Source: a virus. From it: DNA of 64,000 nucleotides. The stretch is from positions 43,380-107,379 of the IMG/VR virus record IMGVR_UViG_3300045988_092736. One strand, written 5' to 3'. Under the pieces are notes generated by a model, which was not told the DNA's origin, ran no database searches, and was given only the letters and a program-made list of their open reading frames with translations. The translations under genes were made by a program, and so were the position numbers. Shown here in pieces: positions 335-61,278 of the stretch (its first letter is position 1; each line of letters starts with the position of its first letter).

Positions 335-1117
335 ATGAAGGAATTAAGAAAGAAAACATTTAAAAATGGTGTCGTGTATTGCCTTCAATTAGAAGATGGC
401 TTTCTAGTTGAAACTACAGACACGTTCTTACCTTATTACACCAAAGATGCAATAGGCAGACATCAAAACAAGCTTGATAACAATGAGCTTGGCGACCGTA
501 CAGAACGTTGGATGATTGGAGTATCTACAATGAGTGGGTGTCCAGTAAGATGCAAATTTTGCGCTACAGGCAACATGAAACGTTATCGCAATCTTACGGC
601 AGAAGAAATTGTAGAGCAGGTTGAATTTGCCGTCAATAAGGCAGGTGCTGACCCAAGCAAAGCAAAAGAGTTTAAAGTTAACTATACTCGTATGGGCGAG
701 CCATTTCTTAATATTGATGCAGTCAAAGAGGCTATTCGTATTATTACGGAGAAATATCCTAATACTCATCATTATGTATCAACGATTGGTATTAAGGGTA
801 GTGATTTCTCTTTCATTAATGGAAATATCACATTGCAGATTAGTTTGCATTCATTTGATGATGACAAGCGAAATTGGTTGATTCCTTATAAGAACAAAAT
901 GACAATTAAGGAGTTGGGACAGATTCGCACAGAAAGCAATCTGAAGACTACAATCAATCTTACACTTGTTGACACTTCTGATTTTGATGCAGAAAAGCTG
1001 AAAAAATGGTTTGATAAGGAGCATTTCTTCGTGAAGTTGTCTCCTATTAATGTGAATAACATATCAGAGAAAAATCACCTCGGCAATGGTGTTGTAGAAG
1101 GAATTAATTTAGTATGA
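335..1117 (+). CDS. radical SAM protein, RlmN/Cfr fold, lacking the N-terminal HhH domain and both class-A methyl-transfer cysteines
   Basis: 'GCPVRCKFCATG' matches the RlmN CxxxCxxC context (GCALECKFCSTA). 'NLTAEEIVEQV', 'MGEPFLN' and 'ISLHS' align with RlmN 'NLRVSEIIGQVW', 'MGMGEPLLN' and 'ISLHA'. No Cys at the C118- or C355-equivalent positions. Confidence 0.7.
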   Translation: MKELRKKTFKNGVVYCLQLEDGFLVETTDTFLPYYTKDAIGRHQNKLDNNELGDRTERWMIGVSTMSGCPVRCKFCATGNMKRYRNLTAEEIVEQVEFAVNKAGADPSKAKEFKVNYTRMGEPFLNIDAVKEAIRIITEKYPNTHHYVSTIGIKGSDFSFINGNITLQISLHSFDDDKRNWLIPYKNKMTIKELGQIRTESNLKTTINLTLVDTSDFDAEKLKKWFDKEHFFVKLSPINVNNISEKNHLGNGVVEGINLV

Positions 1118-1881
1118 AAAAGGGTATTTTCAGATATAGAATTATCACAAATCTGAATTGCAACATGAACGAAAGTACAGGAGTAAACGGAAATTGTTAC
1201 TTCTGCTACCAAAAGTTTAAGTCACCATTGCGACTGGATTGTGATAAGATGGAGGAAACTTTGAAGAAGGTTGGTGTTCTGAAAAGAGCAACTATCATGG
1301 GTGGTGAGAGTTTACTTAACCCAGAATTGGTAAAGATTGTAAAGATAGTCAGCAACTATACGTCAGATGGTATTTGTCTTGTTACAAATGGAATACTGCT
1401 TAATGAGGACATCATCGTAGCATTGAAAGATGCTGGATTAACTGAGGTTGCTATCAGTGTGTCTTCTATCGAGCAGTACGAAAGACGTAGAGACATGGCA
1501 CTTCAGTGTAAAGAGATTATTCCAAACACAAGAATAAACATTCCTAAGTGTAAGGAAAGCTTGAATCCACAATTGTTGGAAACAATACTGGAAGATGGCT
1601 TCTATAGCATTGTTTGTGAAGATTTACAGGCTAGATATGGTGAGATAAGACTCCCAAAAGGTTCTGTAAAGGTTGGCGATGACGGGTATGGATTTTACGA
1701 TTACAAGTGGAATGGTCATACATTTGGAGTATTTGGCAATTATGGGAAGTACAACCGAAGTGATATTATCGTAACTCCTCTTGGAAATTTCTGCGATTGG
1801 GAAAAGTACTGCAAGGCCGTTAAGAACAATGAACTTGTAAGAAGAAACAATCATATTGATGATGACAAAATTGTGCATTGA
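1114..1881 (+). CDS. second radical-SAM-like protein (MoaA/SPASM-like core, non-canonical Cys spacing)
   Basis: 'CNMNESTGVNGNCYFCY' gives Cx12CxxC. 'MGGESLLNPELV' is GGEP-like, 'LVTNG' and 'AISVSS' resemble core radical-SAM motifs. 4-nt overlap with the upstream gene. Confidence 0.5.
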   Translation: MKKGIFRYRIITNLNCNMNESTGVNGNCYFCYQKFKSPLRLDCDKMEETLKKVGVLKRATIMGGESLLNPELVKIVKIVSNYTSDGICLVTNGILLNEDIIVALKDAGLTEVAISVSSIEQYERRRDMALQCKEIIPNTRINIPKCKESLNPQLLETILEDGFYSIVCEDLQARYGEIRLPKGSVKVGDDGYGFYDYKWNGHTFGVFGNYGKYNRSDIIVTPLGNFCDWEKYCKAVKNNELVRRNNHIDDDKIVH

Positions 1882-2302
1882 TTTCGGGAGTGGCTATAAT
1901 CCAAAGACTGGATATAAAACTTGCGATGTAACAACCCTTCCACAATTGGACTTCCTGTATGATGGAAAAGATGAGATTGTCGGACTAAGAGAAAAATCAG
2001 TAGATGTATTCTATCTAAGAAACGTTGTTCATCATATCCCAGACTTACAGAGAACCTTCACAACCTTGAAGAAGTATCTGAAGGTAGGTGGAAAGCTGGT
2101 TATCATTGACTGCAATCAAGGTCATTACAAGACAAATGTATTTCTTGACAATTTGTGGTATAGATTTGTTGGCAACAACCACGAAATCTTTATCAGTAAA
2201 CAGTATAGAGATTACATCAATGTTTTGATCAAGTTAGGCTTTAAGCAATTATATTATAAATCATTTAAAGAAAAGGAGATTACTAAGTATGAATGCAATT
2301 AA
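1856..2302 (+). CDS. class I SAM-dependent methyltransferase
   Basis: Motif I 'IDFGSGYN', post-II 'DVFYLRNVVHHI', motif III 'LKVGGKLVIID'. Confidence 0.6.
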   Translation: MMMTKLCIDFGSGYNPKTGYKTCDVTTLPQLDFLYDGKDEIVGLREKSVDVFYLRNVVHHIPDLQRTFTTLKKYLKVGGKLVIIDCNQGHYKTNVFLDNLWYRFVGNNHEIFISKQYRDYINVLIKLGFKQLYYKSFKEKEITKYECN

Positions 2303-3681: not shown

Positions 3682-4023
3682 ATGATTCAAAAGCAGTCAT
3701 GGAAGGATGAAATCAGAATTTTAATAACTGATGAAGAAAATCTTGGCTCAGTTCAAATATCTATTCCGTCATATGTTAGTGATATTTTCGGCAAAGCTGA
3801 TGCTCTAATATATGCACTCTTTGTTGATGATGCTCATAGAAGATGTGGCGTTGCAAAACGTCTGTTACAACTTGCCGAACAACAAGCTAAGTTAAATGGA
3901 GTGAAAATAATCGGGTTGGAATTTAATAAAGATGAATCCGAGAGTTTTGTTTTCGAATGGTATCTGAATAATGGTTATAAGCCATTTAATAAGGAAAGTA
4001 ATTTATTAATTAAAAAAATATAG
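3682..4023 (+). CDS. GNAT family N-acetyltransferase
   Basis: Motif A 'HRRCGVAKRLLQLAE' (R/QxxGxG/A) and beta-strand pattern 'ALIYALFVDD'. Confidence 0.6.
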   Translation: MIQKQSWKDEIRILITDEENLGSVQISIPSYVSDIFGKADALIYALFVDDAHRRCGVAKRLLQLAEQQAKLNGVKIIGLEFNKDESESFVFEWYLNNGYKPFNKESNLLIKKI

Positions 4024-5484: not shown

Positions 5485-5493
5485 TTATAGCTT

Positions 5494-5886
5494 ATGAAAA
5501 TAGAAAATATCAAGTTCAAGGCTAAACGTCTTGACAATGGAGAATGGGTTGGGGGTTCACTTACATACTCTCAGGGAACGGCATTTATCCATCGTAAAGA
5601 AAGTGATGAAGATGATAGATGTTATTTAACTCCTTACGAAGTAATTCCAGAAACGGTCTGCCAGTTCACAGGAATAATGGACGAAGACTGCAATGAAATT
5701 TGGGAAGGCGATATTGTGCGTGATACCGAAGACCTTATTGGTATAGATAATCTCTATGAGGTAGTTTATATTGAAGAAGAAGGAAATTTTGCCTTCAAGA
5801 GTTTAGATAAAGTTGATAATTACGAGCCATTTGTTAATTTATTTAATGCTTGTGTTGTTGGCAATAAATTCGATAAGGAGAAGTAG
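5494..5886 (+). CDS. YopX-like phage protein
   Basis: 'IKFKAKRLDNGEW' and 'CQFTGIMDEDCNEIWEGDIV' match YopX 'KFRAWDKK' and 'QYTGLKDKNGKEIYEGDIV'. Paralog at 57229. Confidence 0.55.
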   Translation: MKIENIKFKAKRLDNGEWVGGSLTYSQGTAFIHRKESDEDDRCYLTPYEVIPETVCQFTGIMDEDCNEIWEGDIVRDTEDLIGIDNLYEVVYIEEEGNFAFKSLDKVDNYEPFVNLFNACVVGNKFDKEK

Positions 5887-5889
5887 CGT

Positions 5890-6213
5890 ATGAATTACAA
5901 AAAGGTACTAACGAGATACATTCAAGGAAGGCTGTCGGAATTATCTAATGTTGACGCTTATGAACCAAACAAGTTAACATTAACTAATCTGTTGTGGTTT
6001 CTTGGCAAGGCTACCAGTAATGAAGTGATTGTCGCAAAGCTTAAAATCATGGTTGATGCAGACATTAAAAGAAAGAAATATCTAAGTAGATACGATGGTA
6101 ATGAATCATTATACGATGATGATTATTCCAAGGCGGTAGGCACTATCGGAAAGAAATGCTTGTCGTATTTACGAAACTGCAAGATGCAAATAAGGCAAGC
6201 CAAGAAGATTTAG
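5890..6213 (+). CDS. hypothetical protein whose 3' end overlaps the start of a KIRQAKKI-family copy
   Basis: Ends 'KMQIRQAKKI' followed by TAG. Confidence 0.4.
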   Translation: MNYKKVLTRYIQGRLSELSNVDAYEPNKLTLTNLLWFLGKATSNEVIVAKLKIMVDADIKRKKYLSRYDGNESLYDDDYSKAVGTIGKKCLSYLRNCKMQIRQAKKI

Positions 6214-6330
6214 AAGATCCGGAATGATTATTGGTGGTCAAGAAGATATTGGTATAAGTTGGGGTTTGACCAATTGTGTTCTAAATGTCATCGAATCACC
6301 AAGGCGATAAATTTAACTAAAAAGAAGTAG
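6184..6330 (+). pseudogene. 'MKIRQAKKIM' family member with an in-frame TAG at codon 10, where paralogs have ATG
   Basis: ATG CAA ATA AGG CAA GCC AAG AAG ATT TAG AAG ... continues in frame to '...CHRITKAINLTKKK' then TAG. Homologous to the copies at 7098, 7429 and 58750. Confidence 0.35.
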
Positions 6331-6333
6331 CGT

Positions 6334-6705
6334 ATGTGTAGATATTTAAATGTTACTATCGGTGAGAAGGAGTTTGATGAAATCAAGCAAGGCAAGGTAA
6401 AAATATTATGTTTACCTTGCATACCACGTTGGTGTCATACTCTTATTGATGGTGTAAAGATAGAAGGTGAACCAAATCAAATAAAAGTCAAAATGATTAA
6501 TGGCGAACCTCATATTCAGTATGGGCGTTCCATATACCATATCTTTAAAAAAATTGATTATGTCCAACTTTTCTGTAGGGTAGGTTCTCAAACAAGAGTT
6601 CTAAGTAAGGATTGCGCAGGTTTCAGTATTGAGACTACTCAAACGAAAAAGGGAAATGGTTTTATCGAGTATAAGCCAAAAAACTTTGTTGTTCATCTAA
6701 AATAA
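6334..6705 (+). CDS. hypothetical protein
   Basis: Starts at an 'AAGAAGTAGCGTATG' junction. Confidence 0.4.
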   Translation: MCRYLNVTIGEKEFDEIKQGKVKILCLPCIPRWCHTLIDGVKIEGEPNQIKVKMINGEPHIQYGRSIYHIFKKIDYVQLFCRVGSQTRVLSKDCAGFSIETTQTKKGNGFIEYKPKNFVVHLK

Positions 6706-6713
6706 TATGACGT

Positions 6714-7094
6714 ATGAATATAGCAATTTTATATCTTAGTATGAGCTTTATCTACATCTTGCTTGTTTGTTTGGATGGAGAAGATGTTAAGCCAAAATGG
6801 AAGCAATGGCTAGCTGACGAATTAGGCATCAAACCGAAGATAGAGGTTAGATACATAAAGCCACAAGTTATTAAGCTTCATTCAAGAGTTGAAATGTCAT
6901 ACTTTGATACGCAGTATTATGGTCGTGATAAATCGGGCATGGAGCAATTGAAGAGAAGAGCAATAGAAAGTGTGTACGATGAAATTCTTAAGGGAATGAA
7001 GAAAAACGGATTGGTTTCCATTTCGCAATATAATGACATTTATAGTAATAACACTATTTATGAGGGGACATGTGAAATTTATAAAAACAAGTAA
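6714..7094 (+). CDS. hypothetical protein with N-terminal TM helix
   Basis: 'MNIAILYLSMSFIYILLVCL'. Confidence 0.4.
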   Translation: MNIAILYLSMSFIYILLVCLDGEDVKPKWKQWLADELGIKPKIEVRYIKPQVIKLHSRVEMSYFDTQYYGRDKSGMEQLKRRAIESVYDEILKGMKKNGLVSISQYNDIYSNNTIYEGTCEIYKNK

Positions 7095-7097
7095 TGT

Positions 7098-7421
7098 ATG
7101 AAGATTAGACAAGCTAAGAAAATTATGAATATGATGGAGAGAGGAACGGACACACGTTACTTCGATTCCAAATATACATTTAAGAAAGAGAGTAGATTCA
7201 TTCCTAGATTAAAGAATCTCTATCAGAAAGCAACTATCAGATGGAATAAGGTAAATATGTCGAGTGCCAACGTTAGTTTGTTTCGTTCAATTTTGAGAAC
7301 TTCAAAGGAATGCAGTCGTTGTAAACATTTCAATGGTATGCTTGCAGGAAGATGTACTAAACTACATAAGTATGTTGAAAGCAGCGATTGGTGTCATGGA
7401 ATTTTTTTTTGCAGAAAGTGA
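7098..7421 (+). CDS. 'MKIRQAKKIM' family protein
   Basis: Shared N-terminus with the copies at 7429 and 58750. Confidence 0.4.
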   Translation: MKIRQAKKIMNMMERGTDTRYFDSKYTFKKESRFIPRLKNLYQKATIRWNKVNMSSANVSLFRSILRTSKECSRCKHFNGMLAGRCTKLHKYVESSDWCHGIFFCRK

Positions 7422-12473: not shown

Positions 12474-12812
12474 ATGACAACTTCAATTAAGAACAAGATG
12501 AGAAAGGTAATGCAGTTGGCACATAGAGCCTATCAGTTGAAATCAAGTTCAATGTCTTGGGTTGAGTGCTTGAAACAGGCTTGGCAGGTCGTAAAGCTTG
12601 AGGCAGCGATGAAGACCAAGGTAGTAGAGTTCTTCTTTATGAAGATGAATGGTGAGGTAAGACAAGCCTTTGGTACTCTCCTTCAGAGCCACATTGACTA
12701 CACTCCAAATGGTACTGGTCATGCAGCATCAAGAGATTGCATCCGCTATTGGGATGAAGAAAAGGGCGCATGGAGACAATTCAAGGCTTACAACTTCTTG
12801 CGAGTTGCATAA
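12474..12812 (+). CDS. hypothetical protein, paralog of 25024..25359
   Basis: About 60% identity by eye: 'MSWVECLKQAWQVVKLE' with 'MSWAECLKQAWQVIKLK', 'KMNGEVRQAFGTL' with 'KMNGEIRQAFGTL'. Shared conserved leader. Confidence 0.5.
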   Translation: MTTSIKNKMRKVMQLAHRAYQLKSSSMSWVECLKQAWQVVKLEAAMKTKVVEFFFMKMNGEVRQAFGTLLQSHIDYTPNGTGHAASRDCIRYWDEEKGAWRQFKAYNFLRVA

Positions 12813-15039: not shown

Positions 15040-15386
15040 ACGTTAAAAATTTGGTGGTTTGAAATAAATTTCGTACCTTTGCAACGAAATCCCAAGGTGG
15101 GAGGCGGTGGTGAGAACACCACCTCCCTGTTGGAAATCTAAGCTTTACAATTCAATTGTAAGAGCAACTTTGATTTTCCAAATCCGAATTGAAATATACA
15201 GTCTCATGCGGCTTTGGGATTTCATTTTACCTACTCTTTCAGGTTTTCGGCATCTCCTTTGCAATCTCTCATTGATTACACAGCAAAGATACGAAAAATA
15301 TTTGAAATATGCAAATTATTTCAAGATTATTTTTAGAAAACATGAAAATAAATTAGAGTTTCCTTGCATTTCTCGAAGGTTTTTGT

Positions 15387-15422: not shown

Positions 15423-15827
15423 ATGAAAGTATTATCAATTCGCCAGCCGTATGCTTGGTTAATCGCTATCGGCTGCAAGACCATTGAAAACAGAACATGG
15501 AATAGAAAATTCCGTGGCCGTTTCCTTATCCATGCAAGCCAAGCCAAACCCGAAAAGCTTGACGGATGGCAGGAGAGCGCAATGAAGAAATATTGCCAAG
15601 AGCATGGTATTGTTATTCCGGACTTTAAAGACTTGCCAACGTCAGCCATTATCGGCAGCGTAGAGTTGGATGATATTCAGTATCAAGAGGCTTATCCGGA
15701 TGCATTTGCTGAAGATTTCCAATATCATTGGTTCTTGAAGAATGCTAAATTGTTCGATGAGCCGATTAGAAACGTCAAAGGCAAGTTGTTCCTCTGGGAT
15801 TATGAGTATAATGAAGCCGAAATGTAA
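15423..15827 (+). CDS. ASCH domain protein (PUA-like beta-barrel)
   Basis: 'LSIRQPYAWLIAIGCKTIENRTWNRKFRGRFLIHAS' fits the ASCH N-terminal signature. Confidence 0.6.
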   Translation: MKVLSIRQPYAWLIAIGCKTIENRTWNRKFRGRFLIHASQAKPEKLDGWQESAMKKYCQEHGIVIPDFKDLPTSAIIGSVELDDIQYQEAYPDAFAEDFQYHWFLKNAKLFDEPIRNVKGKLFLWDYEYNEAEM

Positions 15828-24806: not shown

Positions 24807-24989
24807 ATGACTACTTCAATGATAAGAAGAAACTTGATTCAGAAGTTCGTTATGATAGAGTTCGTAAGCAACAGGATAAACACCCAAAAGGACGTTGATA
24901 GAATGTTGAATATGATAACAATAAAGCTCAATATGAACAACGATGAGGCTAAGAGCTTCTTGCGTGAGAGCATCGGACTTGCAAAGTAA
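24807..24989 (+). CDS. small ORF carrying a duplicated leader and N-terminus of the 12474 family
   Basis: Upstream 'CCGAGTCGGCACTCGTAAAACGGT' and start 'ATGACTACTTCAAT' match those of 12474, and the body diverges. Confidence 0.3.
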   Translation: MTTSMIRRNLIQKFVMIEFVSNRINTQKDVDRMLNMITIKLNMNNDEAKSFLRESIGLAK

Positions 24990-25692: not shown

Positions 25693-25880
25693 TAGATTTA
25701 GGCACACGCTAAACTGCACCGGACTTTGGACATTAAATATTTAAGAGATATGGATAAGAATTATGGTGAAAGTTTTTGTTTTTCACAATATAGATAAGTG
25801 TTGTTAAACTGAGTGCTAATTTTTGGTAGAGTGGAATATAATAGCTATCTTTGTGGTCGAATTTCAAAACTTATAAGGAC

Positions 25881-26777
25881 ATGAAGATATTAGAACCAAA
25901 ATATGAAATCCTATCCCAAGGTGAGGGTATGGATGGAGTTTACAAGCAGATAGAGTTATGCGGTCGCACTTGCTATGCGTCAAGTATGAAGATAGACAAA
26001 GACAGTGCAAAGCCTTTCGTTGAGCGTATGGTAAGCAGCAACCATCTTGCCATGTGTGAGCATGGAACGATTTACCTCCATGTAGCCTATGAAGAAGGAT
26101 TTTTTGTGCCGGAGTCTTTATTGGTCAAGCACTATCGTGAGAACAAATATTCAAAGGTGATGCAGATAGGTAACGATTACTATATCACAACCAACTACAG
26201 AGTGATAGTTGAAAATAATTGGTTTGAGGATTTGGACTATATCTGCGAGCCTACGGAATGGCATGAGAAGCGAATAACCGTCCGCTTTACTACTCAGATT
26301 GCGGTAAGTAGAGAGGCTAACAGACATCGTGTAGATTCCGTAGCGGAACAAAGCACTAGATATTGCAACTATAGTAAGGATAAGTTCGGAGGCGAGATTG
26401 CTATCAACAAACCAAAGTGGGTTGGTGAAGATGATGCGGTTAATCCATCGTCTTTTGATGGTGGAACATTTGTTGACCTATCAAAGAACATCGGTAGTTA
26501 TGAGCATTGGAGTCCGGTAGAAAAATGGTGGTTTGCCAATAGAGTATGTGAAATGATGTATTTGTCTTTGGTTAAGGATGATGGTTTAAAGCCACAAGAT
26601 GCGAGAACTGTTCTTCCTCTTGATACCAACACGGAGTTGATTCATACCGCATTCGTGAGTGATTGGCTTCATTTCTTCGATTTGCGATCAAAAGGAACTA
26701 CTGGAAAGCCTCATCCAGATATTGAGGTCTTGGCAACCCCATTGATGAATGAGTTCAAGGAACGAGGTTTGATTTAA
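25881..26777 (+). CDS. thyX: flavin-dependent thymidylate synthase ThyX
   Basis: ThyX signature 'RHRVDSVAEQSTRY' (RHRxxxxxxxSxRY). ATG at 25881 preferred over 25851. Confidence 0.8.
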   Translation: MKILEPKYEILSQGEGMDGVYKQIELCGRTCYASSMKIDKDSAKPFVERMVSSNHLAMCEHGTIYLHVAYEEGFFVPESLLVKHYRENKYSKVMQIGNDYYITTNYRVIVENNWFEDLDYICEPTEWHEKRITVRFTTQIAVSREANRHRVDSVAEQSTRYCNYSKDKFGGEIAINKPKWVGEDDAVNPSSFDGGTFVDLSKNIGSYEHWSPVEKWWFANRVCEMMYLSLVKDDGLKPQDARTVLPLDTNTELIHTAFVSDWLHFFDLRSKGTTGKPHPDIEVLATPLMNEFKERGLI

Positions 26778-33289: not shown

Positions 33290-33311
33290 CAAGTACTTTT
33301 GTCATATTACA

Positions 33312-33385
33312 AGGAATGTAGCTCAGTAGTAGAGCACTTGGCTATGCAACCAAGGGGGCGTTGGTGCAAATCCAACCATTCCTTT
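33312..33385 (+). tRNA. tRNA-Cys: tRNA-Cys-like (GCA) with an apparent 8-nt anticodon loop
   Basis: Acceptor AGGAATG/CATTCCT, U8A9, D-stem GCTC/GAGC, anticodon stem CTTGG/CCAAG enclosing CTATGCAA, T-arm GTTGG-TGCAAAT-CCAAC, discriminator U as in tRNA-Cys. Confidence 0.5.
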
Positions 33386-42321: not shown

Positions 42322-43428
42322 ATGTATAAAAACGAGCACAAGTTCCCTTATAGATGGACTAAAAAAGATGCTAATTTTACAAAAGACAAAGGTAAGGTGA
42401 TGTCTTGCTTTTGTTGTGGAGGTGGAAGTTCCTTTGGTTACAAACTAGCTGGATACGATGTTGTAGCCTGTAATGAGATAGACCCAAAGGTTATGAAGAT
42501 GTACTTGAAAAATCACGATGTCAAGTACGCTTTCAATTGTGATATTCGTGAGTTGATTACCAATATCAATATGGGGGGGCATATTATGAAAGAAGAGTTG
42601 CATAATTTGGATATATTGGATGCTAGTTTCCCATGTTCTGTATTCAGTATTGCAGGTGACCGCCAAAAGGCTTGGGGAAAGGAAAAAGTATTCCGAGAAG
42701 GTCAGAAGGCGCAAAGGCTTGACGATTTGGCTTTCTACTCTATTGACCTTGCTAAAGAACTAAAGCCAAAGGTGGTGGTTTTTGAGAATGTCCAAGGTTT
42801 GTTGCAAGGTGAAGCTATCGAGTACGTGAAAGAGATTTACAAGCAGATGGATAATGCCGGATATATCTTGCAGCATTGGTTGCTTAATGCACGTAATATG
42901 GGTGTTCCTCAGAATCGACCTAGGGTGTTCTTTCTAGGATTACGCAAAGACCTTTGCGAGCCGTTTATGGTTCAGAAGGATTTGTTCGAGCGAGTGCCTA
43001 AGATAGATATGGACTTCAACGAGAAAGAAATTGTCTTGGATGAGTTCTCGGACTATAATGGAAGACAGATTCCTAAAGGAATGATGAAGTATTGGGAGTA
43101 TAGAAACGAAAAGGACAATTCTATCGGTGATATTGTCAAGCGGATGGATAATCGTCTTTCTATGTTCAATAATATGTTTCTTAAAAAGAACAAGGTATGC
43201 AATACCATATCAGCAATGGAAGATAGACTTGTGTATTATGATAATCCAAGTTATCTTTCAGCACATGATACGATTTTAGCATCAACATTTCCGATGGATT
43301 ATGACTTTAATGGCATGAAACCTTGGTTTGCTTGCGGAATGTGTGTTCCTCCTGTTATGATGGCTAATGTAGCTACAAGAATCTGGGATTGTTGGTTATC
43401 AAAGATTAAAAAGGAGGAATGCGCATGA
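42322..43428 (+). CDS. DNA (cytosine-5)-methyltransferase
   Basis: Motif I 'FCCGGGSSFG', motif IV 'FPCSVFSIAG' (PC), motif VI 'VVVFENVQGLL' (ENV). Confidence 0.8.
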   Translation: MYKNEHKFPYRWTKKDANFTKDKGKVMSCFCCGGGSSFGYKLAGYDVVACNEIDPKVMKMYLKNHDVKYAFNCDIRELITNINMGGHIMKEELHNLDILDASFPCSVFSIAGDRQKAWGKEKVFREGQKAQRLDDLAFYSIDLAKELKPKVVVFENVQGLLQGEAIEYVKEIYKQMDNAGYILQHWLLNARNMGVPQNRPRVFFLGLRKDLCEPFMVQKDLFERVPKIDMDFNEKEIVLDEFSDYNGRQIPKGMMKYWEYRNEKDNSIGDIVKRMDNRLSMFNNMFLKKNKVCNTISAMEDRLVYYDNPSYLSAHDTILASTFPMDYDFNGMKPWFACGMCVPPVMMANVATRIWDCWLSKIKKEECA

Positions 43429-44162
43429 TAACAGCAAGTATGACATCGGGAGAGATGCGTAGAGTACGAAACTTAGATGAAGCTAGAATCTATGAGTTTC
43501 AGATGCGAAAAGCTAATGAGCTTAAACGTGAAATGAGAAAGCAGAACGTAAGACAAATAACAAAGACCTTTGAGCTTGCTACACCTAATGCCGATTATTT
43601 CATCGTTGTAGGTGTAAAACATGGCGATGTATTTGCTTCCGGTTTGTTCATTTATCTGAAGGAAACCAACGAGTATATTCCTATGAGTAGAAACGAGGGG
43701 TATAGCGAAGATTGTTTTGCTATGAGCGTTCATTTTCTGAAGAGATTTGCAGAAAGGTTTTTGAAAAAAGACTTACCGATTCTCAAGATATTGCAAAAGA
43801 TATATACATCGTTTACAGGTGCTGTTCAGCTCTATAGTGATGACAAGACAAGAAGAGTGGTATTTGCTATTCCGGAAGGGCTTATACTCACAGAATACGA
43901 GCAAGAAAAGCATATCATCCATTACAAAACCTTTGTAAGCATGGATATGCTAAAGAAGACACAGAAGCGGAGTTATGAGAAGATAAGTGCATTTCTCATG
44001 GAGTCTTGTCAGCAAATAGCTAAAGCAAGAGACACCGGAAATGACGAAAGGCTGTGCGTTGTGTACAGAAGGTTTTACAATGATATTGATTTGCTAGATA
44101 CAAAGGAGGCGCAAACCATATATTCAAGTTTCTTTGAAAAAGGAGGTAACAATGAAAGATAA
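43419..44162 (+). CDS. hypothetical protein
   Basis: Intact ORF. Confidence 0.4.
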   Translation: MRMITASMTSGEMRRVRNLDEARIYEFQMRKANELKREMRKQNVRQITKTFELATPNADYFIVVGVKHGDVFASGLFIYLKETNEYIPMSRNEGYSEDCFAMSVHFLKRFAERFLKKDLPILKILQKIYTSFTGAVQLYSDDKTRRVVFAIPEGLILTEYEQEKHIIHYKTFVSMDMLKKTQKRSYEKISAFLMESCQQIAKARDTGNDERLCVVYRRFYNDIDLLDTKEAQTIYSSFFEKGGNNER

Positions 44163-44655: not shown

Positions 44656-44656
44656 T

Positions 44657-46070: not shown

Positions 46071-46074
46071 AACT

Positions 46075-46299
46075 ATGGATATGTGCAAGGTGTTTTGTTG
46101 CAATCCTGTTGTAAGAAATGGGAATAAAGAAACAACGGATGCTCTTATAAGAGCTATGAGAGACGAAGCCTTAAAACGAGGGTTGGTACGTGATGAATTG
46201 ATAGGTTTTTGCAACCGATTCTTGAGAGAAGGCGAAATCAAAGCTTGTATAGAGCATTTGCTAGATAATTTCAAACGTTATTTTTGGAGGTATCATTGA
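46075..46299 (+). CDS. hypothetical protein
   Basis: Intact ORF. Confidence 0.35.
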   Translation: MDMCKVFCCNPVVRNGNKETTDALIRAMRDEALKRGLVRDELIGFCNRFLREGEIKACIEHLLDNFKRYFWRYH

Positions 46300-46300
46300 T

Positions 46301-52794: not shown

Positions 52795-53125
52795 ACACTC
52801 GTTAAAGATAAGTCGTAGCTACTTTGGCGAAACTACCCTTGATGGTTATCCTATAGCTACATATTCAAATGATGAATTAAAGATTCTAAAGAACCTGCTA
52901 GAAAAGGTTCTGTGTGAAGTAAATGAATATATAAAAGACTAGGCGTATGAAACAGAAGTTGAAAATGATATGGCGAATCCTCCGTGACAGACAGGTTGTA
53001 GTAATAACCGAAGACCACGGAAGAATGTACTATAATTGGAGCACTAGAAGTATATCAGACGTACTTCAAATGTGTCACAAGGTATGTGAAATGGCTCTTA
53101 TGATGGATAATAAAAAGTAAAACGT

Positions 53126-53560
53126 ATGGATAAATTAGAATATATTCCAGGAGATATAGTAAAAATTGAATATGGAAAAGCTACTGGAAAAATAGGTTTC
53201 GTAACAATTACTTTTTTAAGAAGAAAAGGTTGCTATAGTCTTGTTGTATTTATTGGTAAAGGGTTTCAAGGTTCTTCTAAAGACGATTGGATTCAAACTT
53301 ATAATGATGAGGTATCTCCGATTCCTCTCACTACTGAGATTCTAGAGAAGAATGGATGGAGAACACAAAACAGATGGTACTATTACTTAGATGTAGCAGA
53401 AGGGTTTATTTCTTATATTGGGATAGACTTTAAGCATAAATCTAATAAAGGTCATCTATATGTAGAGGTTGATGGAAATAATATGGTAGAGATACAATAC
53501 TGCCACGAACTCCAGCATTTTCTCTTCGGTCTAGGACTTAACTCAGAAATGGAGGTGTAG
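53126..53560 (+). CDS. hypothetical protein
   Basis: Intact ORF. Confidence 0.4.
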   Translation: MDKLEYIPGDIVKIEYGKATGKIGFVTITFLRRKGCYSLVVFIGKGFQGSSKDDWIQTYNDEVSPIPLTTEILEKNGWRTQNRWYYYLDVAEGFISYIGIDFKHKSNKGHLYVEVDGNNMVEIQYCHELQHFLFGLGLNSEMEV

Positions 53561-56937: not shown

Positions 56938-57225
56938 ATGACAAAACCTTACAGAATCAAGCATAAGGCTAGTGGATATTTCTACCAACGTTACAACGGA
57001 AGTAACCTTGGCAAGAAAGGCAAGGTGTATATGAATAATCAATCACCACTTACAATGTGTGATAATGAGAACTTTATACGTATTCAGATTCGTCACAACA
57101 CTTTAGCTTATAAGGCATTGAGAGATACGCTTGCCAAATATGTTATAGGTAAAGATGATGAGTGTGAATGGCATAGTACATCTTACAGAGTTCCGAAAAG
57201 TGAATTTGAAAAAGAAGAATTATAG
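56938..57225 (+). CDS. hypothetical protein
   Basis: Intact ORF. Confidence 0.35.
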   Translation: MTKPYRIKHKASGYFYQRYNGSNLGKKGKVYMNNQSPLTMCDNENFIRIQIRHNTLAYKALRDTLAKYVIGKDDECEWHSTSYRVPKSEFEKEEL

Positions 57226-57228
57226 CTT

Positions 57229-57609
57229 ATGAAAGTAGAAAATATCAAGTTTAAGGCAAAACGTCTTGACAACGGAGAATGGATAATCGGAAGCTTTGTT
57301 GTAATGAAGATTCCTGCACTTAGCAAAACTACTATAGGTATCGTAGAAGCAGGCGGTGCAACGCTTCATGAAATTGACCCTGTTACTGTCTGCCAGTTCA
57401 CAGGGCTGACAGATTGTGAAGGTAAAGAATTGTTTGAACACGACCTAATACATTTCGTAGGGTATAAGCCTATAGGCGAAGTGATTTGGTCAGAAGAGAA
57501 CTATGCTTTTATGGTAGTCAGCGGAAATGAACCTTTTTATTGGCTTTCAGAAGTTCTGGAAATTGGTAAGATAGAAAGAGTTGGCAATAAATTCGATAAA
57601 AAGAAGTAG
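57229..57609 (+). CDS. YopX-like phage protein, paralog of 5494..5886
   Basis: 'MKVENIKFKAKRLDNGEW...VCQFTGLTDCEGKELFEHDLI...GNKFDKKK'. Confidence 0.55.
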   Translation: MKVENIKFKAKRLDNGEWIIGSFVVMKIPALSKTTIGIVEAGGATLHEIDPVTVCQFTGLTDCEGKELFEHDLIHFVGYKPIGEVIWSEENYAFMVVSGNEPFYWLSEVLEIGKIERVGNKFDKKK

Positions 57610-57945
57610 CGTATGAAGCGTATAAAAAGTATATTCTCTATGTTTGCTTATTGGGATAGAGTACATCAATTCCCAGACGGGCATATTAAAGTAGAAAATA
57701 ATTTAGCTTGGAGAAGAAAACATATGCATGTTCGCAGTAGTAATAAACAAATACCTTTTTAGCGTATGAAAAAAGAAACAAGAAATGTAGTAGTTCTCGA
57801 TTGGGAGGATAAAATTAAGCTACAACAATTTATCAAGGATTTGGAACAAATCTCTGAGACTTACCAAAGGCCTTGTAAGGAACTTACAGGTATCAATAAT
57901 ACAATTTACTATCTCAAAACGATTGAGGAGGAAATTAATTAAGAT

Positions 57946-58203
57946 ATGAGACTTTTAAAGAAAGATAAGCTAACGGCATATTGGGATAAGAAAGAGAACT
58001 GCATTGGTGCTTATCATCCTCTAGGGTTTATGACTCAAACAGATGCTCATTATCTTTTCGATAAGGTCTTCACCAAAGAGTTTGTCAAAGAAATGACTGA
58101 TAGAGGATATGATGTTACAACGATGAAGTTTGAAATCTCTCCCAAGTTGCCGAACTATGAGCGATTCAACGGCTTATCAGAGAAGTATTACGGAAAGAAA
58201 TAG
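57946..58203 (+). CDS. hypothetical protein
   Basis: Ends at a TAGTAGCGTATG junction. Confidence 0.35.
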   Translation: MRLLKKDKLTAYWDKKENCIGAYHPLGFMTQTDAHYLFDKVFTKEFVKEMTDRGYDVTTMKFEISPKLPNYERFNGLSEKYYGKK

Positions 58204-58209
58204 TAGCGT

Positions 58210-58443
58210 ATGAAGAATAAGATTTTAGACTTAACCAAGTCAGCCGTTTGGTTGGTCTTGTGTCTGATTGTTGGTGCATTGATATGTGAGGGCATTTGCT
58301 CATTGGCTAATATCAATAAACCAGCAAAGAGAGTTGGTATATCTGTAATCACAGAAGAAGAGCACGATTATCTGGTTGTGGACACGAAACATGGTGTTTG
58401 CGTTATCCACGCTGAGAGTTGCCCTTGTCGTAAAAAGAAGTAG
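58210..58443 (+). CDS. small membrane protein
   Basis: TM 'AVWLVLCLIVGALICEGICSLA'. Confidence 0.35.
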   Translation: MKNKILDLTKSAVWLVLCLIVGALICEGICSLANINKPAKRVGISVITEEEHDYLVVDTKHGVCVIHAESCPCRKKK

Positions 58444-58446
58444 CGT

Positions 58447-58752
58447 ATGGAAAATAATATGTTTGAAGATATTGTTGCTGAAGGCAATATAGTTGTGATA
58501 AATAATAATTGGATTGTGTTATGTAAGTGTTGGAAACCAGAATATCATAATCTGTTCTGTTATCTTTATCTCCATAAGGAATATAAGAATTTAATGGTAG
58601 GCTCTCATTTCACAATGACCGAGGATAAAAAGAAATCTACTCGGTTGGCTACCAACGAGGAGCGTCTTATGCTTTTTGATGAAATGTTCAAGTATGGAAT
58701 TACTTTCGATAAGCACGAACATCGTTTGATTGGAAAGTTAGTTGGTGTATGA
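58447..58752 (+). CDS. hypothetical protein
   Basis: Intact ORF. Confidence 0.35.
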   Translation: MENNMFEDIVAEGNIVVINNNWIVLCKCWKPEYHNLFCYLYLHKEYKNLMVGSHFTMTEDKKKSTRLATNEERLMLFDEMFKYGITFDKHEHRLIGKLVGV

Positions 58753-59327: not shown

Positions 59328-59522
59328 ATGAGCAAGCAAACATTTGACTTCTCGGAGGCTTTAAAGCGTATGAGAAAAGGAAAGCTCGTAAAGCGTGAAA
59401 ATGGGCTTTATCCGTTTGGTATTGACGAGGAAGGAATATTCTATCATTATGGGCATCATATATTCAAGGAAGATAGAATGCTCTCAGAGGATATACTTGC
59501 AATAGACTGGGAGGAGGTGTAA
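59328..59522 (+). CDS. DUF2829 / Tad2-like small protein
   Basis: 'FDFSEALKRMRKGKLVKRENG' and C-terminal 'EDILAIDWEEV' match the DUF2829 pattern (F.FSEAL.ALK.GK.V.R..W ... DLLAEDWEIV). Confidence 0.55.
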   Translation: MSKQTFDFSEALKRMRKGKLVKRENGLYPFGIDEEGIFYHYGHHIFKEDRMLSEDILAIDWEEV

Positions 59523-59524
59523 GG

Positions 59525-60268
59525 ATGAAAAAGAAAATATTGACTCTCACCATCAGCAAGCAGTGGTTTGATATGATTGTGGCTGGCGAAAAGACTGAGG
59601 AATACAGAGCTGTCAAATCGTATTGGATAAACCGCTTAATTCAAGCAAAATACGGAGGAAGTGATGAATATCGCAAGGTTACAATGCACCCAGAGTTTGA
59701 TATGCTTATAAGCAATTCAAAGCTCAAAGAGTTGCTTGAAAAGAAAACCGCTAGGTTCATCCCTTACACCTACGTCCGATTCTTCTGCGGTTATGCGAAA
59801 AATCGTCCGATGATAGAAAAGAAAATCGAAGGTATCACCTTTGGAAAGCCGAAAAATGGCTTGATACTGAGTTTTTTATTATTAAATTTAAGTGATATGA
59901 AAATAAAGAATTTACCAAAGAAGATTTACCTCAATATCTGTAGCAATGAAGATGAGGTAGATTACAATGAGCTTAACGGAGTAACGTTCAGTACAGAAAT
60001 GGTTGGTGTTACCGATTGTGATACGGAAAACGTTCCTTACGTGAATGCTGCATCATTATGGCACGACCTAAAAGAAGATAAGCCACCTTTAAAAAAGTGG
60101 GTAATGTTCCGATATAGTGGAGGTGGCGTAAATCCTACGGCTCTTCATTATGGAGCAATGAGTGACGATATATGGGTTGTCACAAGAGGAGACGGAACAC
60201 AGCGTATCGAAGTTCTGTATGAGTGCTACGATAAGATTGAGTGGCTTGACTTTGATGAACTAAAATAG
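59525..60268 (+). CDS. ASCH/DUF3850-like PUA-fold domain protein with C-terminal extension
   Basis: N-terminus 'LTLTISKQWFDMIVAGEKTEEYRAVKSYW' matches the ASCH/DUF3850 signature. Confidence 0.4.
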   Translation: MKKKILTLTISKQWFDMIVAGEKTEEYRAVKSYWINRLIQAKYGGSDEYRKVTMHPEFDMLISNSKLKELLEKKTARFIPYTYVRFFCGYAKNRPMIEKKIEGITFGKPKNGLILSFLLLNLSDMKIKNLPKKIYLNICSNEDEVDYNELNGVTFSTEMVGVTDCDTENVPYVNAASLWHDLKEDKPPLKKWVMFRYSGGGVNPTALHYGAMSDDIWVVTRGDGTQRIEVLYECYDKIEWLDFDELK

Positions 60269-60277
60269 CGATAGCGT

Positions 60278-60505
60278 ATGACAAATAAAGATTTTTTTAA
60301 TGCGTATCGTGGAGAGCCTGTTCTTTATAAAGGTAATGATATTGGTGCATACGTTGCAGGGTATGTAGAGGAAAAGTATATTATCCTTGGGTTCTATGAT
60401 GATAAAGGATGTATCCTTGCCTTTAATACAGATGTGAATGTAGATAAGATATATGTATCATACAGATTCGCAAAATTAAAGTATTTGGAAGTAGTAAAAC
60501 ATTAG
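60278..60505 (+). CDS. hypothetical protein
   Basis: Starts at a TAGCGATAGCGTATG junction. Confidence 0.35.
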   Translation: MTNKDFFNAYRGEPVLYKGNDIGAYVAGYVEEKYIILGFYDDKGCILAFNTDVNVDKIYVSYRFAKLKYLEVVKH

Positions 60506-61239: not shown

Positions 61240-61278
61240 GGGTAGGGAAAGTTATTCTTCCCCTATCTCTTTTAAACC
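61240..61278. terminator. bidirectional hairpin between convergent genes
   Basis: 'aaaaAGGGTAGGGAAAGttattCTTCCCCTATCTcttttaaa'. Confidence 0.4.

What the first reader, a model, noticed from the sequence alone, without database searches (positions are those of the whole stretch)
5875..6336. Conserved 'AAGAAG-TAG-CGT-ATG' junction motif, first region (5.8-7.1 kb)
Stop and start codons are linked by the same 3-nt spacer, TAG CGT ATG, at 5884-5892 and 6328-6336. The same motif recurs at 57607-57615, 58201/58204-58212, 58441-58449 and 60266-60280. Degenerate versions (TGACGTATG at 6706, TAATGTATG at 7092) also occur. All are in regions carrying paralogous moron genes. The motif constrains the upstream protein to end in Lys-Lys. 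It may act as a translational-coupling or reinitiation signal, or as a micro-homology for modular gene exchange.
Basis: seen in the sequence. Interest (0 to 1): 0.5.

Follow-up and report, generated by a model that had tools for sequence, protein, structure and literature searches.

The report
Start-codon junction motif in gut phages
A short sequence (AGCGT directly before the ATG start codon, usually overlapping the previous gene's stop codon) recurs at the boundaries of many unrelated small genes in a large family of uncultured human-gut phages. It most likely acts as a shared translation-start signal that also marks where genes get swapped, much like the still-unexplained "start-associated sequences" of some mycobacteriophages.

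Summary
TAGCGTATG occurs 7 times in the window, all on the + strand, against 0.36 expected, and every copy sits at a stop/start junction.

The fixed 3-nt spacer is only one form of a broader motif. In 80 relatives sampled by protein homology, without selecting for the motif, the invariant core is AGCGT directly abutting ATG. The upstream stop codon fits in three registers: TAG|CGT, TAA|GCGT and TAA|AGCGT.

AGCGT is the commonest 5-mer before junction ATGs: 59 independent gene-family pairs, 29 downstream families, 15 times expectation. It is enriched only when ATG follows, and it lies almost only on the coding strand. A purine-rich block (AAGGAG or AAAAAG) sits 8-9 nt upstream.

The motif drifts at orthologous junctions. 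It persists where the upstream ORF has decayed. It has no structure, promoter or terminator signature. Cassette swaps and indels do occur at it, but no more often than at other junction types.

Best reading: a start-associated translation-initiation junction that also serves as an exchange point. The closest analogue is the Cluster K mycobacteriophage SAS, but it is not a sequence member of that family. The mechanism is inferred, not shown. This is a new variant of a known kind, of moderate interest.

The parts
5878..5892 (+). GAGAAG-TAG-CGT-ATG junction: stop of YopX gene 5494-5886, start of gene 5890-6213. AAGGAG (SD-like) lies 9 nt before the ATG.
6322..6336 (+). AAGAAG-TAG-CGT-ATG junction before gene 6334-6705. 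The upstream frame (6184-6330) is a decayed MKIR-family gene with a premature TAG at 6211-6213.
57601..57615 (+). AAGAAG-TAG-CGT-ATG junction: stop of YopX paralogue 57229-57609, start of gene 57613-57762.
57760..57768 (+).
58201..58212 (+). TAG-TAG-CGT-ATG junction: stop of 57946-58203, start of 58210-58443. That gene is absent in relative L152, with indel boundaries at this motif copy and the next.
58435..58449 (+). AAGAAG-TAG-CGT-ATG junction: stop of 58210-58443, start of 58447-58752.
60266..60280 (+). TAGCGA-TAGCGT-ATG junction (6-mer doubled): the real stop of 59525-60268 is the first TAG; start of 60278-60505.
52940..52949 (+). Register variant TAG-GCGT-ATG: stop of 52781-52942, start of 52947-53120.
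53118..53128 (+). One-mismatch register variant TAA-AACGT-ATG: stop of 52947-53120, start of 53126-53560.
6703..6716 (+). Degenerate variant TAA-tatgACGT-ATG: stop of 6334-6705, start of 6714-7094. The TGA at 6708 is not in the upstream frame.
7092..7100 (+). Degenerate variant TAA-TGT-ATG: stop of 6714-7094, start of 7098-7421.
59361..59372 (+). TAA-AGCGT-ATG form inside ORF 59328-59522, with GGAGG 11 nt upstream. This is a possible alternative or true start at 59370.
26022..26030 (+). GAGCGT-ATG: AGCGT-ATG opening a 249-codon frame inside the TTG-started ORF 25851-26777 (thymidylate-synthase-like). Possibly the true start.
5488..5496 (+). Sister motif TAG-CTT-ATG before YopX gene 5494-5886. 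AGCTT is the commonest one-mismatch neighbour and interconverts with AGCGT at orthologous junctions.
57223..57231 (+). Sister motif TAG-CTT-ATG before YopX paralogue 57229-57609.

Best explanation
The 9-mer is the commonest form of a start-associated junction sequence used throughout a large family of uncultured human-gut phages. The consensus is an A-rich stretch, a purine block AARRAG, 0-3 nt, TA(G/A), (A)GCGT, ATG, AA.

It belongs to the translation-initiation region of the downstream gene. AGCGT abuts the start codon. The purine block sits where a Shine-Dalgarno sequence would sit, 8-9 nt upstream. The previous gene's stop codon is fitted into the motif in whichever register its reading frame allows. 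This explains why the normally rarer TAG stop is used when the gap is 3 nt: TAG supplies the A and G of AGCGT.

Proposed mechanism (inferred): in these tightly packed polycistronic arrays of small non-structural genes, ribosomes or 30S subunits that have just finished the upstream gene, or that are held by the purine block, start at the abutting AUG. AGCGT together with the A-rich second codon tunes that start.

The same 10-30 nt junction is shared by unrelated cassettes. It is therefore also one of the places where short-homology recombination swaps, inserts and deletes whole genes, and this helps to spread and maintain it.

Shown: position, strand, dependence on ATG, register variation, enrichment across many unrelated gene families, spread across the family, and exchange events at the motif.

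Inferred: the effect on translation, what recognises AGCGT, and the contribution of recombination to its maintenance.
For: Enrichment and strand: TAGCGTATG 7 copies against 0.36 expected, and AGCGTATG 10 against 1.29, all on +. In loci sampled by YopX homology rather than by the motif, 88 on + against 11 on -. AGCGTATG is +105/-5 in the close YopX group and +154/-12 in the distant YopX group.

Start association: AGCGT is enriched only when ATG follows (269 of 1186 + strand copies; the remainder matches the - strand level). 132 of 154 unique contexts open an ORF of at least 40 codons.

Registers: TAG|CGT 38, TAA|GCGT 9 plus TAG|GCGT 3, TAA|AGCGT 26 unique junctions. One orthologous junction has TAGCGTATGA in which the TAG is out of frame.

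Independence from gene ancestry: 29 downstream and 30 upstream families, 59 family pairs. It is the top 5-mer before junction ATGs, at 15 times the position-independent expectation. The consensus is sharp: 59 against 23 for AGCTT and 7 or fewer for every other neighbour.

Features of an initiation region: a purine block AAGGAG or AAAAAG 8-9 nt upstream, A at -14, -13 and -11, and A at +4 and +5. The window has real SDs with a spacing peak at 6-8 nt.

Location: only in tightly packed blocks of small genes that lack their own promoters or terminators.

Exchange: break fraction 0.77 at these junctions. 12 whole-gene indels are flanked by direct repeats containing the motif. Four different genes follow the same junction in alignment A1.

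Analogy: Cluster K SAS have the same anatomy (PMC3203893).
Against: There are no expression or translation data, so the role is inferred from anatomy alone.

Nothing known recognises AGCGT. The C at -3 is the poor choice under the Kozak-like A(-3) rule described for bacteria (PMC6847099).

Only 23% of these junctions carry a canonical SD 4-mer, against 32% of all junctions.

At orthologous junctions with diverged flanks, positions -2 and -1 are only 0.55-0.65 identical, about the same as synonymous sites (55 pairs in 8 groups). Single-base variants are common. So per-site purifying selection is weak or absent.

22% of motif-preceded genes have no upstream ORF ending at the motif, and copy 6328 follows a decayed gene. 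Strict coupling therefore cannot be the whole story.

Predicted RNA accessibility is the same as at other junction types.
Confidence: 0.5

Rival explanations
1. Neutral recombination linker. The sequence has no specific role in expression. It is a junction that became common because short-homology recombination between shared junctions yields viable cassette swaps, so any junction shared by many cassettes propagates itself.
For: Motif presence is predicted equally by the upstream and the downstream gene family (0.38 and 0.33, against a baseline of 0.086). Homology from both sides overlaps across about -15..+15. 165 whole-gene indels are flanked by 4-40 nt direct repeats, and 132 of them span an ATG. 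Four different downstream genes follow one junction. The motif drifts at a near-neutral rate at orthologous junctions. Other recurrent junction families exist, such as TTGGAGGAT...ATG and TAGTTATG.
Against: The motif is used in indels in proportion to its frequency (7% against 8.6%), so it is not especially prone to recombination. The same sharp consensus is kept in sub-lineages whose YopX proteins differ by about 35%. Its position relative to ATG is fixed to the nucleotide, and the ATG is part of it; a pure DNA linker does not need that. No recombinase was found among the 40 proteins scanned with Pfam, although the scan was incomplete.
Confidence: 0.2
2. Operator for a trans-acting factor. 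A phage- or host-encoded RNA-binding protein (as T4 RegA does on early mRNAs) or a DNA-binding repressor (as at L5 stoperators) recognises the asymmetric site overlapping the start codon and co-regulates a set of small non-structural genes.
For: The site is asymmetric and multi-copy, lies in one orientation relative to transcription, overlaps stop and start codons, and is confined to non-structural gene blocks. The consensus is sharp. Candidate RNA-binding proteins are encoded in the window: ProQ C-terminal-like at 52459-52794, ASCH at 15423-15827 and Sm-like WYL_2 at 12474-12812. The resemblance to RegA and to stoperators rests on my own knowledge and on the mention of stoperators in PMC3203893.
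Against: No RegA-like protein was detected. The ProQ_C-like hit barely passes its threshold (28.2 against 27 bits). Motif density does not track the presence of any candidate gene in 45 partial genomes, though that test is weak. The motif decays freely at orthologous junctions. No antisense partner exists in the window. Stoperators are not fixed relative to the ATG, whereas this motif is.
Confidence: 0.15
3. Shared ancestry or composition. The copies are leftovers of duplicated cassettes (paralogues that kept their junction), or a by-product of Lys-rich C-termini together with the preference for T at -1.
For: The two YopX paralogues both end in AAGTAGCGTATG, and the MKIR-like family is present in both blocks. 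T at -1 is general, in 68% of junctions. Purine-rich last codons are common at all junctions.
Against: Only two paralogue families link the blocks. The motif flanks 29 downstream and 30 upstream BLAST-unrelated families. It is 15 times above a position-specific composition model. It follows non-Lys-Lys endings as often as Lys-Lys endings. No shuffle reaches the observed count.
Confidence: 0.05
4. Programmed TAG readthrough. Because TAG-CGT-ATG keeps the two ORFs in frame, suppression of TAG would fuse neighbouring proteins.
For: The 3-nt form is in frame. There is an in-frame TAG at 6211 inside a gene. The phage carries a tRNA cluster that includes a tRNA with an 8-nt anticodon loop.
Against: The equally conserved 4-nt and 5-nt registers are out of frame. 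No tRNA with a CUA anticodon is present. Doubled in-frame stops occur at 58201 and 60266. The 6211 TAG lies in a gene that carries further stops in relatives, so that gene is a pseudogene. The large late genes contain no internal TAG.
Confidence: 0.02

Closest known systems
Start-Associated Sequences (SAS) of Cluster K mycobacteriophages (Pope et al. 2011, PMC3203893; survey of 188 genomes in PMC12699233)
   Same: Both are short asymmetric repeats, about 10-19 per genome, virtually all in one orientation. Both lie immediately upstream of start codons, mostly ATG, and are restricted to non-structural genes of many different gene families. The upstream stop codon often lies inside the repeat. 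Both are conserved across sub-lineages. The function is proposed to be translational and remains untested.
   Different: The sequence is unrelated: GGGATAGGAGCCC is absent from the window. SAS contains the AGGAG SD core and sits 3-7 bp from the start. Here the specific core AGCGT has no SD character and abuts the ATG with no spacing, and the SD-like purine block is separate and degenerate. No ESAS-like inverted repeats were seen. The host phylum and genome G+C content are different. The consensus here is softer and drifts.
Classical translational-coupling junctions (ATGA and TAATG overlaps, or a stop within a few nt of the start with an SD inside the upstream gene); own knowledge
   Same: Stop and start lie 3-5 nt apart in polycistronic arrays. 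A purine-rich SD-like block is encoded by the last codons of the upstream gene. 74% of copies directly follow a live ORF.
   Different: Ordinary coupling needs no specific spacer sequence. Here a particular CG-containing pentamer is 15 times over-represented across unrelated genes. It is kept when the TAG is not the functional stop, or when the upstream ORF is decayed or absent.
PeSL regulatory cassettes of T4-type phages (Arbiol et al. 2010, PMC2839356)
   Same: Both are short conserved elements between small non-essential genes in hyperplastic regions. Recombination at them causes insertion, deletion and replacement of whole genes.
   Different: PeSLs are sigma-70-like promoters combined with terminator stem-loops. 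Here there is no promoter, terminator or stem-loop signal. The element is only about 10-30 nt long and lies within 2-9 nt intergenic gaps. Exchange is not specific to this motif.
Stoperators of mycobacteriophage L5 and Cluster A (cited in PMC3203893; details from own knowledge)
   Same: Both are asymmetric sites present in many copies, in one orientation relative to transcription, in very short intergenic gaps that overlap stop and start codons.
   Different: Stoperators are 13-bp repressor-binding DNA sites of temperate phages, and they are not fixed relative to the ATG. Here the ATG is part of the motif, and no cognate repressor is known.
T4 RegA translational operators (own knowledge)
   Same: Both are loosely conserved sequences that overlap the AUG of many early mRNAs.
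   Different: No RegA homologue was detected, and binding has not been tested.

Membership tests
Cluster K mycobacteriophage SAS | Match to the 13-bp consensus GGGATAGGAGCCC with at most 2 mismatches | tested here: not met
   No match with 2 or fewer mismatches. There are 6 matches at 3 mismatches against 5.37 expected, and none is at a gene start.
Cluster K mycobacteriophage SAS | Located within a few nt (3-7 bp) upstream of start codons, mostly ATG | tested here: met
   AGCGT abuts the ATG with no spacing. 132 of 154 unique contexts open an ORF of at least 40 codons. The spacing is tighter than in SAS.
Cluster K mycobacteriophage SAS | Asymmetric, and essentially all copies in one orientation | tested here: met
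   Window 10 on +, 0 on -. Relatives +105/-5 and +154/-12.
Cluster K mycobacteriophage SAS | Restricted to non-structural genes and associated with many different gene families | tested here: met
   Window copies lie in small-gene blocks and not in the tape-measure or capsid modules. There are 29 downstream families.
Cluster K mycobacteriophage SAS | Contains the SD core AGGAG within the repeat | tested here: not met
   The core AGCGT has no SD character. A separate purine block is canonical in only 23% of junctions.
Termination-reinitiation (translational coupling) junction | The upstream stop lies within a few nt of the downstream start, in the same operon | tested here: met
   Gaps of 3-5 nt in 77 of 102 GCGT junctions. 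94 of 127 motif-preceded genes follow a live ORF of at least 40 codons.
Termination-reinitiation (translational coupling) junction | Downstream translation depends on translation of the upstream gene | not testable with these tools
   This needs reporter fusions or Ribo-seq. Indirect evidence against strict dependence: 22% of motif-preceded genes lack an upstream ORF, and copy 6328 follows a decayed gene.
PeSL-type mobile regulatory cassette | Strong sigma-70-like promoter combined with a terminator stem-loop | tested here: not met
   Promoter-like sites are at or near the shuffle expectation and are not at junctions. There are 0 terminators in the first block. There is no structure signal.
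PeSL-type mobile regulatory cassette | Sits at the boundaries of gene insertions, deletions and replacements between relatives | tested here: met
   Break fraction 0.77. 12 repeat-flanked indels contain the motif. Four alternative downstream genes follow one junction. The same holds for the other junction types.
   Intergenic gaps are 2-9 nt. No cassette-specific promoters or terminators were found.
L5-type stoperator | Binding site of a phage repressor that blocks transcription elongation | not testable with these tools
   The anatomy is similar (asymmetric, one orientation, at junctions), but no cognate repressor was identified. The fixed link to the ATG argues for action at the RNA or translation level.
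RegA-type translational operator | Presence of a RegA-family repressor gene | tested here: inconclusive
   No such Pfam hit among the 40 proteins scanned. About 80 small ORFs remain unscanned.
Stop-codon recoding or readthrough | A suppressor tRNA (CUA anticodon), in-frame TAGs in essential genes, and conserved in-frame junctions | tested here: not met
   There is no CUA tRNA. The 4-nt and 5-nt registers are out of frame. The only in-frame TAG seen lies in a pseudogene.

The most novel reading that the evidence does not exclude
AGCGT-AUG is a sequence-specific initiation or regulatory signal of a new type. It would be recognised at the start codon by a phage-encoded factor or a modified ribosome, giving the phage private control over a regulon of small accessory genes. 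This would be especially notable if the host is a Bacteroidales species, whose ribosomes are reported to ignore Shine-Dalgarno sequences, while this phage also carries SDs with canonical spacing.
Probability: 0.12. Interest if true: 0.75.

Novelty: new variant of a known kind. Interest (0 to 1): 0.4.

Why it matters
Start-associated sequences have been known in mycobacteriophages since 2011, and their function is still unproven. This finding gives a second, unrelated example in a very large family of human-gut phages. At least 289 contigs encode the linked YopX gene.

The anatomy differs from SAS in useful ways: the core has no SD character, it abuts the ATG, and the stop codon takes three registers. 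This shows the phenomenon is not peculiar to actinobacteriophages and gives a comparative handle on it.

There are practical uses too. The motif helps gene calling: it suggests start sites at 26028 and 59370 and flags the pseudogene at 6184-6330. It also marks the boundaries of interchangeable accessory-gene cassettes, which is useful for annotating and engineering these uncultured phages.

If the motif proves to be recognised by a dedicated factor, it would be a new mode of phage translational control.

Tried and rejected
1. A 15-mer scan of IMG/VR gave a set selected for the motif, so its upstream logo is biased. I replaced it with a set anchored on YopX protein homology.

2. Conserved RNA structure or special accessibility: none. 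P(unpaired) at -5..-1 is 0.45, against 0.30-0.51 for other junction types.

3. Promoter or terminator at junctions: none.

4. Antisense partner RNA in the window: the + strand has only 4 three-mismatch matches, which is chance level.

5. Rfam: only the tRNAs and a DUF805b hit elsewhere; nothing at the motif.

6. Membership of the SAS sequence family: rejected.

7. Readthrough or fusion reading: rejected because the other registers are out of frame and there is no suppressor tRNA.

8. Kozak-like rules for Bacteroidia (A at -3 and -6): the motif has C at -3, so these rules do not explain it.

9. Pairing of AGCGT with the initiator-tRNA anticodon loop or the 16S 3' tail: I considered this from textbook sequences and found no convincing complementarity. 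It was not tested against the real host rRNA, which is unknown.

10. Phylogenetic profiling of candidate RNA-binding genes against motif density: uninformative with 20-kb partial genomes.

11. Literal-sequence literature search: it returned only primers.

12. Host identification: conflicting evidence (Segatella and Lachnospiraceae MAG bins, Paludibacteraceae prophage-like relatives, cultured relatives on Bacteroidota). It remains unresolved.

13. The selection test at orthologous junctions is underpowered (8 groups) and dominated by one YopX-linked group.
Full report
**1. The observation**

TAGCGTATG occurs seven times in the 64-kb window, all on the + strand. Dinucleotide-preserving shuffles give a mean of 0.36, and none of 100 reaches 7. 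The copies are at 5884, 6328, 57607, 57760, 58204, 58441 and 60272. Each copy lies at the stop of one ORF and the start of the next.

The two doubled forms are as described: TAGTAGCGTATG at 58201 and TAGCGATAGCGTATG at 60266. The 'TGACGTATG' variant is at 6708, not 6706, and its TGA is not the upstream stop, which is TAA at 6703-6705. The AAGAAG prefix is exact in three copies. The upstream protein ends in Lys-Lys in four of the seven.

**2. What the window is**

The window is an uncultured tailed phage from the human gut. The only near matches in GenBank phage records are unannotated 'Bacteriophage sp.' contigs from human faeces.

Annotated features:
- radical-SAM genes at 0.3-1.9 kb
- a 2324-aa tape-measure protein at 16.7-23.7 kb
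- thymidylate-synthase-like and RNase H genes at 25.8-27.3 kb
- five tRNAs at 33.0-33.5 kb
- an amidoligase
- a major head protein at 37.3-38.4 kb
- three DNA methyltransferases and a Mom-like protein at 42-47 kb

The motif copies lie only in blocks of small, tightly packed + strand genes of unknown function, at 5.5-7.4, about 53 and 57-60.5 kb. Intergenic gaps there are 2-9 nt. These blocks have no junction-specific promoters or terminators. The first block has 18 promoter-like sites against 19.2 expected, and no terminators. They are polycistronic arrays, not morons in the strict sense.

Only two paralogue families link the two main blocks: YopX (5494-5886 and 57229-57609, 40% identity) and a small 'MKIRxAKKIM...HRITKAI' family.

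**3. The motif is a trait of the whole phage family**

91 of them share DNA similarity with the window, and many carry several copies on one strand. That set was selected for the motif, so I fetched 80 loci by homology to the YopX protein instead, with 10-kb flanks (289 relatives were found).

In these 1.37 Mb, TAGCGTATG occurs 88 times on the + strand and 11 on the - strand, with about 5 expected per strand, in 54 distinct contexts. The enrichment holds in both sub-lineages. AGCGTATG is +105/-5 where YopX is 81-88% identical and +154/-12 where it is 62-70% identical. It is not seen in distant capsid relatives inside Paludibacteraceae contigs.

**4. The real anatomy**

I catalogued 1182 unique junctions, each defined as the stop of an ORF of at least 45 codons followed within -20..+25 nt by an ATG opening at least 45 codons.

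The conserved element is not 'stop, 3 nt, start'. It is AGCGT directly abutting the ATG. The stop codon occupies three registers: TAG|CGT|ATG (38 unique junctions), TAA|GCGT|ATG (9) plus TAG|GCGT|ATG (3), and TAA|AGCGT|ATG (26). So the otherwise less common TAG is used in the 3-nt register because it supplies the A and G of AGCGT.

In one orthologous group the sequence is TAGCGTATGA. There the TAG is out of frame and the real stop is the ATGA overlap.

AGCGT is enriched only when ATG follows. That is 269 of 1186 + strand copies, and the remaining 917 compare with 1078 on the - strand. 132 of 154 unique contexts open an ORF of at least 40 codons.

Aligned on the ATG, the motif extends in both directions. 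A is 0.96 at -5. A purine block (AAGGAG or AAAAAG) lies 8-9 nt upstream. A is frequent at -14, -13 and -11. The two bases after the ATG are mostly A (0.70 and 0.82). The block is where a Shine-Dalgarno sequence would be, but only 23% of these junctions have a canonical SD 4-mer, against 32% of all junctions.

**5. More than chance, composition or one duplicated gene**

I clustered flanking proteins by BLASTP. The GCGT-ATG junctions precede 29 downstream families and follow 30 upstream families, giving 59 distinct pairings.

After collapsing to family pairs, AGCGT is the most common 5-mer before junction ATGs. It has 59 contexts against 3.9 expected from position-specific base frequencies. Next come TAGTT with 40 and AGCTT with 23. 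The consensus is sharp: AGCTT with 23 is the only frequent one-mismatch neighbour, and all others have 7 or fewer.

TAGCGT follows upstream proteins both with and without a Lys-Lys ending (8 and 16 collapsed contexts).

**6. How it behaves in evolution**

*Soft consensus.* At orthologous junctions whose flanks are 55-90% identical, positions -2 and -1 are only 0.55-0.65 identical, which is similar to neighbouring third-codon positions (55 pairs in 8 groups). TAGCGT interconverts with TAGCGC, TAACGT, TAGCCT, TAGCTT and TAGTGT. The sample is small and dominated by one YopX-linked group.

*Symmetric association.* Motif presence is predicted equally by the upstream and the downstream gene family (0.38 and 0.33, against a baseline of 0.086).

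*Breakpoints.* Homology breakpoints between relatives pile up at gene junctions of every type. The break fraction is 0.77 for GCGT junctions, 0.61 for AGTT, 0.68 for GCTT, 0.49 for ATGA overlaps and 0.58 for the rest. Homology from the two sides overlaps across about -15..+15.

*Indels.* I found 165 distinct whole-gene indels flanked by direct repeats of up to 40 nt. 132 of them span an ATG and 12 (7%) contain GCGTATG. That equals the motif's share of junctions, 8.6%. One example is window gene 58210-58443. It is absent from L152, and both indel boundaries fall at motif copies.

*Inside the finding's own coordinates (alignment A1).* The stretch 6184-6330 before the second copy is a decayed MKIR-family gene. 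Its premature TAG at 6211 is shared with four relatives. Three of those have further stops, and one other relative has TTG at that position. Even so, AAGAAGTAGCGTATG is retained in seven of the eight genomes aligned. Four different downstream genes follow it, and similarity ends right after the ATG.

*Upstream ORFs.* Across the family, 94 of 127 motif-preceded genes abut a live upstream ORF and 28 do not. These proportions match those of other junction types.

**7. Mechanisms tested and not supported**

- **RNA structure:** predicted accessibility is the same as at other junctions.
- **Antisense RNA:** there is no complementary RNA in the window.
- **Known RNA families:** no Rfam family matches at the motif.
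- **TAG readthrough:** excluded, because the 4-nt and 5-nt registers are out of frame and no CUA-anticodon tRNA exists.
- **Kozak-like context:** the rule described for Bacteroidia and E. coli (A at -3 and -6; PMC6847099) does not explain a C at -3.
- **Trans-acting factor:** Pfam scans of 40 proteins found no RegA-like repressor and no recombinase. They did find candidate RNA-binding proteins: ProQ C-terminal-like at 52459-52794 (28.2 against a 27-bit cutoff), ASCH at 15423-15827 and Sm-like WYL_2 at 12474-12812. Motif density does not track any of them in 45 partial genomes, but that test is weak.

**8. Best explanation**

The motif is the core of a shared translation-initiation junction for the small non-structural genes of this phage family. 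It abuts the start codon. A degenerate SD-like block sits at SD distance, and an A-rich second codon follows. The upstream stop is fitted into it.

I infer that it promotes or tunes initiation at the abutting AUG, by ribosomes arriving from the upstream gene in most cases. I also infer that, because unrelated cassettes share the same 10-30 nt, it is one of the sites where short-homology recombination reassorts cassettes, and this helps to keep it common.

The anatomy, the enrichment and the exchange events are shown. The translational effect, the recognising partner and the balance between selection and recombination are inferred. I give this reading about 0.5. The rivals are:
- a purely neutral recombination linker, about 0.2
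- an operator for a trans-acting RNA- or DNA-binding factor, about 0.15
- shared ancestry or composition, about 0.05
- readthrough, about 0.02

**9. Comparison with known systems**

The closest analogue is the Start-Associated Sequence of Cluster K mycobacteriophages. SAS is a 13-bp asymmetric repeat present in 11-19 copies, in one orientation, 3-7 bp from ATG starts of non-structural genes of many families. It sometimes contains the upstream stop, and its function is still unverified (PMC3203893; PMC12699233).

This motif works like an SAS in anatomy but is not a member. The SAS consensus is absent, the core here has no SD character, and the spacing to the ATG is zero.

It resembles T4-type PeSLs in sitting at cassette boundaries (PMC2839356), but it lacks their promoter and terminator. 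It resembles L5 stoperators in orientation and placement at junctions, but it is locked to the ATG. It differs from ordinary coupling junctions in having a specific, strongly over-represented CG-containing pentamer.

**10. Verdict**

This is a real, family-wide, start-associated junction motif. It is a new variant of a known kind. Interest is moderate (0.4). It gives a second, independent system in which the unanswered question of what start-associated sequences do could be addressed, but nothing here demonstrates a new mechanism.

Noticed in passing
window 33311-33385 (+): A tRNA in the phage's five-tRNA cluster has an 8-nt anticodon loop (CTATGCAA). ARAGORN calls a 4-base anticodon 'atgc', and Rfam tRNA scores 59.6 bits. 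It could be a quadruplet decoder or a frameshift-suppressor-like tRNA. The 3:70 pair is G-C, so it does not have alanine identity. No link to the motif was established.
   Followed up: partly
whole window; for example starts at 3022, 10235, 37347, 51380, 51882, 52459, 59525: About 20 genes have GGAGG with a sharp spacing peak 6-8 nt before the ATG (GGAGG +77/-19), so these are real SDs. Yet the capsid's nearest cultured relatives infect Bacteroidota, 51% relatives sit in large Paludibacteraceae contigs, and a 98% copy is in a Segatella copri MAG bin. Bacteroidia ribosomes are reported to ignore SDs. Either the host is a Firmicute (Lachnospiraceae MAG bins also hit) or this is a Bacteroidales phage that uses SDs, which would be interesting in itself.
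   Followed up: partly
window 6184-6330 (+), with 5890-6213: This is a decayed copy of the small MKIR-family gene. Its premature in-frame TAG at 6211-6213 is shared with relatives L041, L136, L142 and L123; the last three carry further stops, and L135 has TTG at that position. The window and L041 also lack a 14-nt segment containing GGAGG, which fuses the MNYKK ORF in frame to the MQIR start.
   Followed up: yes
window 3159, 3682, 54916, 55285, 55521, 55846, 56257 (+): A second recurrent junction family, (T)TGGAGGA(T/A)-N5-6-ATG with a strong SD, is shared by unrelated genes. It also flanks whole-gene indels between relatives (for example TTGGAGGATTGAGTATGACAAAA).
   Followed up: partly
L119-L198 and window: There are 165 distinct whole-gene insertions or deletions between relatives, flanked by 4-40 nt direct repeats, and 132 of them span a start codon. 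Cassette gain and loss by short-homology recombination at translation-start regions is a general property of this phage family.
   Followed up: yes
window 26028 and 59370 (+): AGCGT-ATG suggests revised starts. The thymidylate-synthase-like ORF 25851-26777 (TTG start) may begin at 26028, giving 249 codons. ORF 59328-59522 may begin at 59370, with GGAGG 11 nt upstream.
   Followed up: no
window 15228-15260 (-): Rfam DUF805b RNA motif hit (39.6 bits, gathering score 35.6) on the minus strand, in a region of + strand genes.
   Followed up: no
window 52459-52794, 15423-15827, 12474-12812, 24807-24989 (+): Candidate nucleic-acid-binding small proteins: ProQ C-terminal-like (borderline), ASCH domain, and WYL_2 Sm-like. 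A second gene at 24807 begins MTTS after a near-identical upstream leader (gcactcgtaaaacggt...), like the WYL_2 gene at 12474.
   Followed up: no
window 57609-57626 and 60266-60277 (+): Local duplications of the motif's own bases: GCGTATGAAGCGTATA right after the 57607 copy, and the tandem TAGCGA-TAGCGT at 60266. The tandem form is conserved in relatives (6 unique contexts).
   Followed up: no
window 42322-46930 (+) and 335-2302 (+): There is a dense DNA-modification load: three DNA methyltransferases, a Mom-like protein, two radical-SAM proteins and a small SAM-methyltransferase-domain protein. An HNH endonuclease is at 47526-47912 and a GNAT acetyltransferase at 3682-4023.
   Followed up: no
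window 61243-61265: A bidirectional terminator-like hairpin lies where the + strand small-gene array meets the minus-strand genes (61.2-64 kb). It probably marks the end of the operon that carries the second motif cluster.
   Followed up: no
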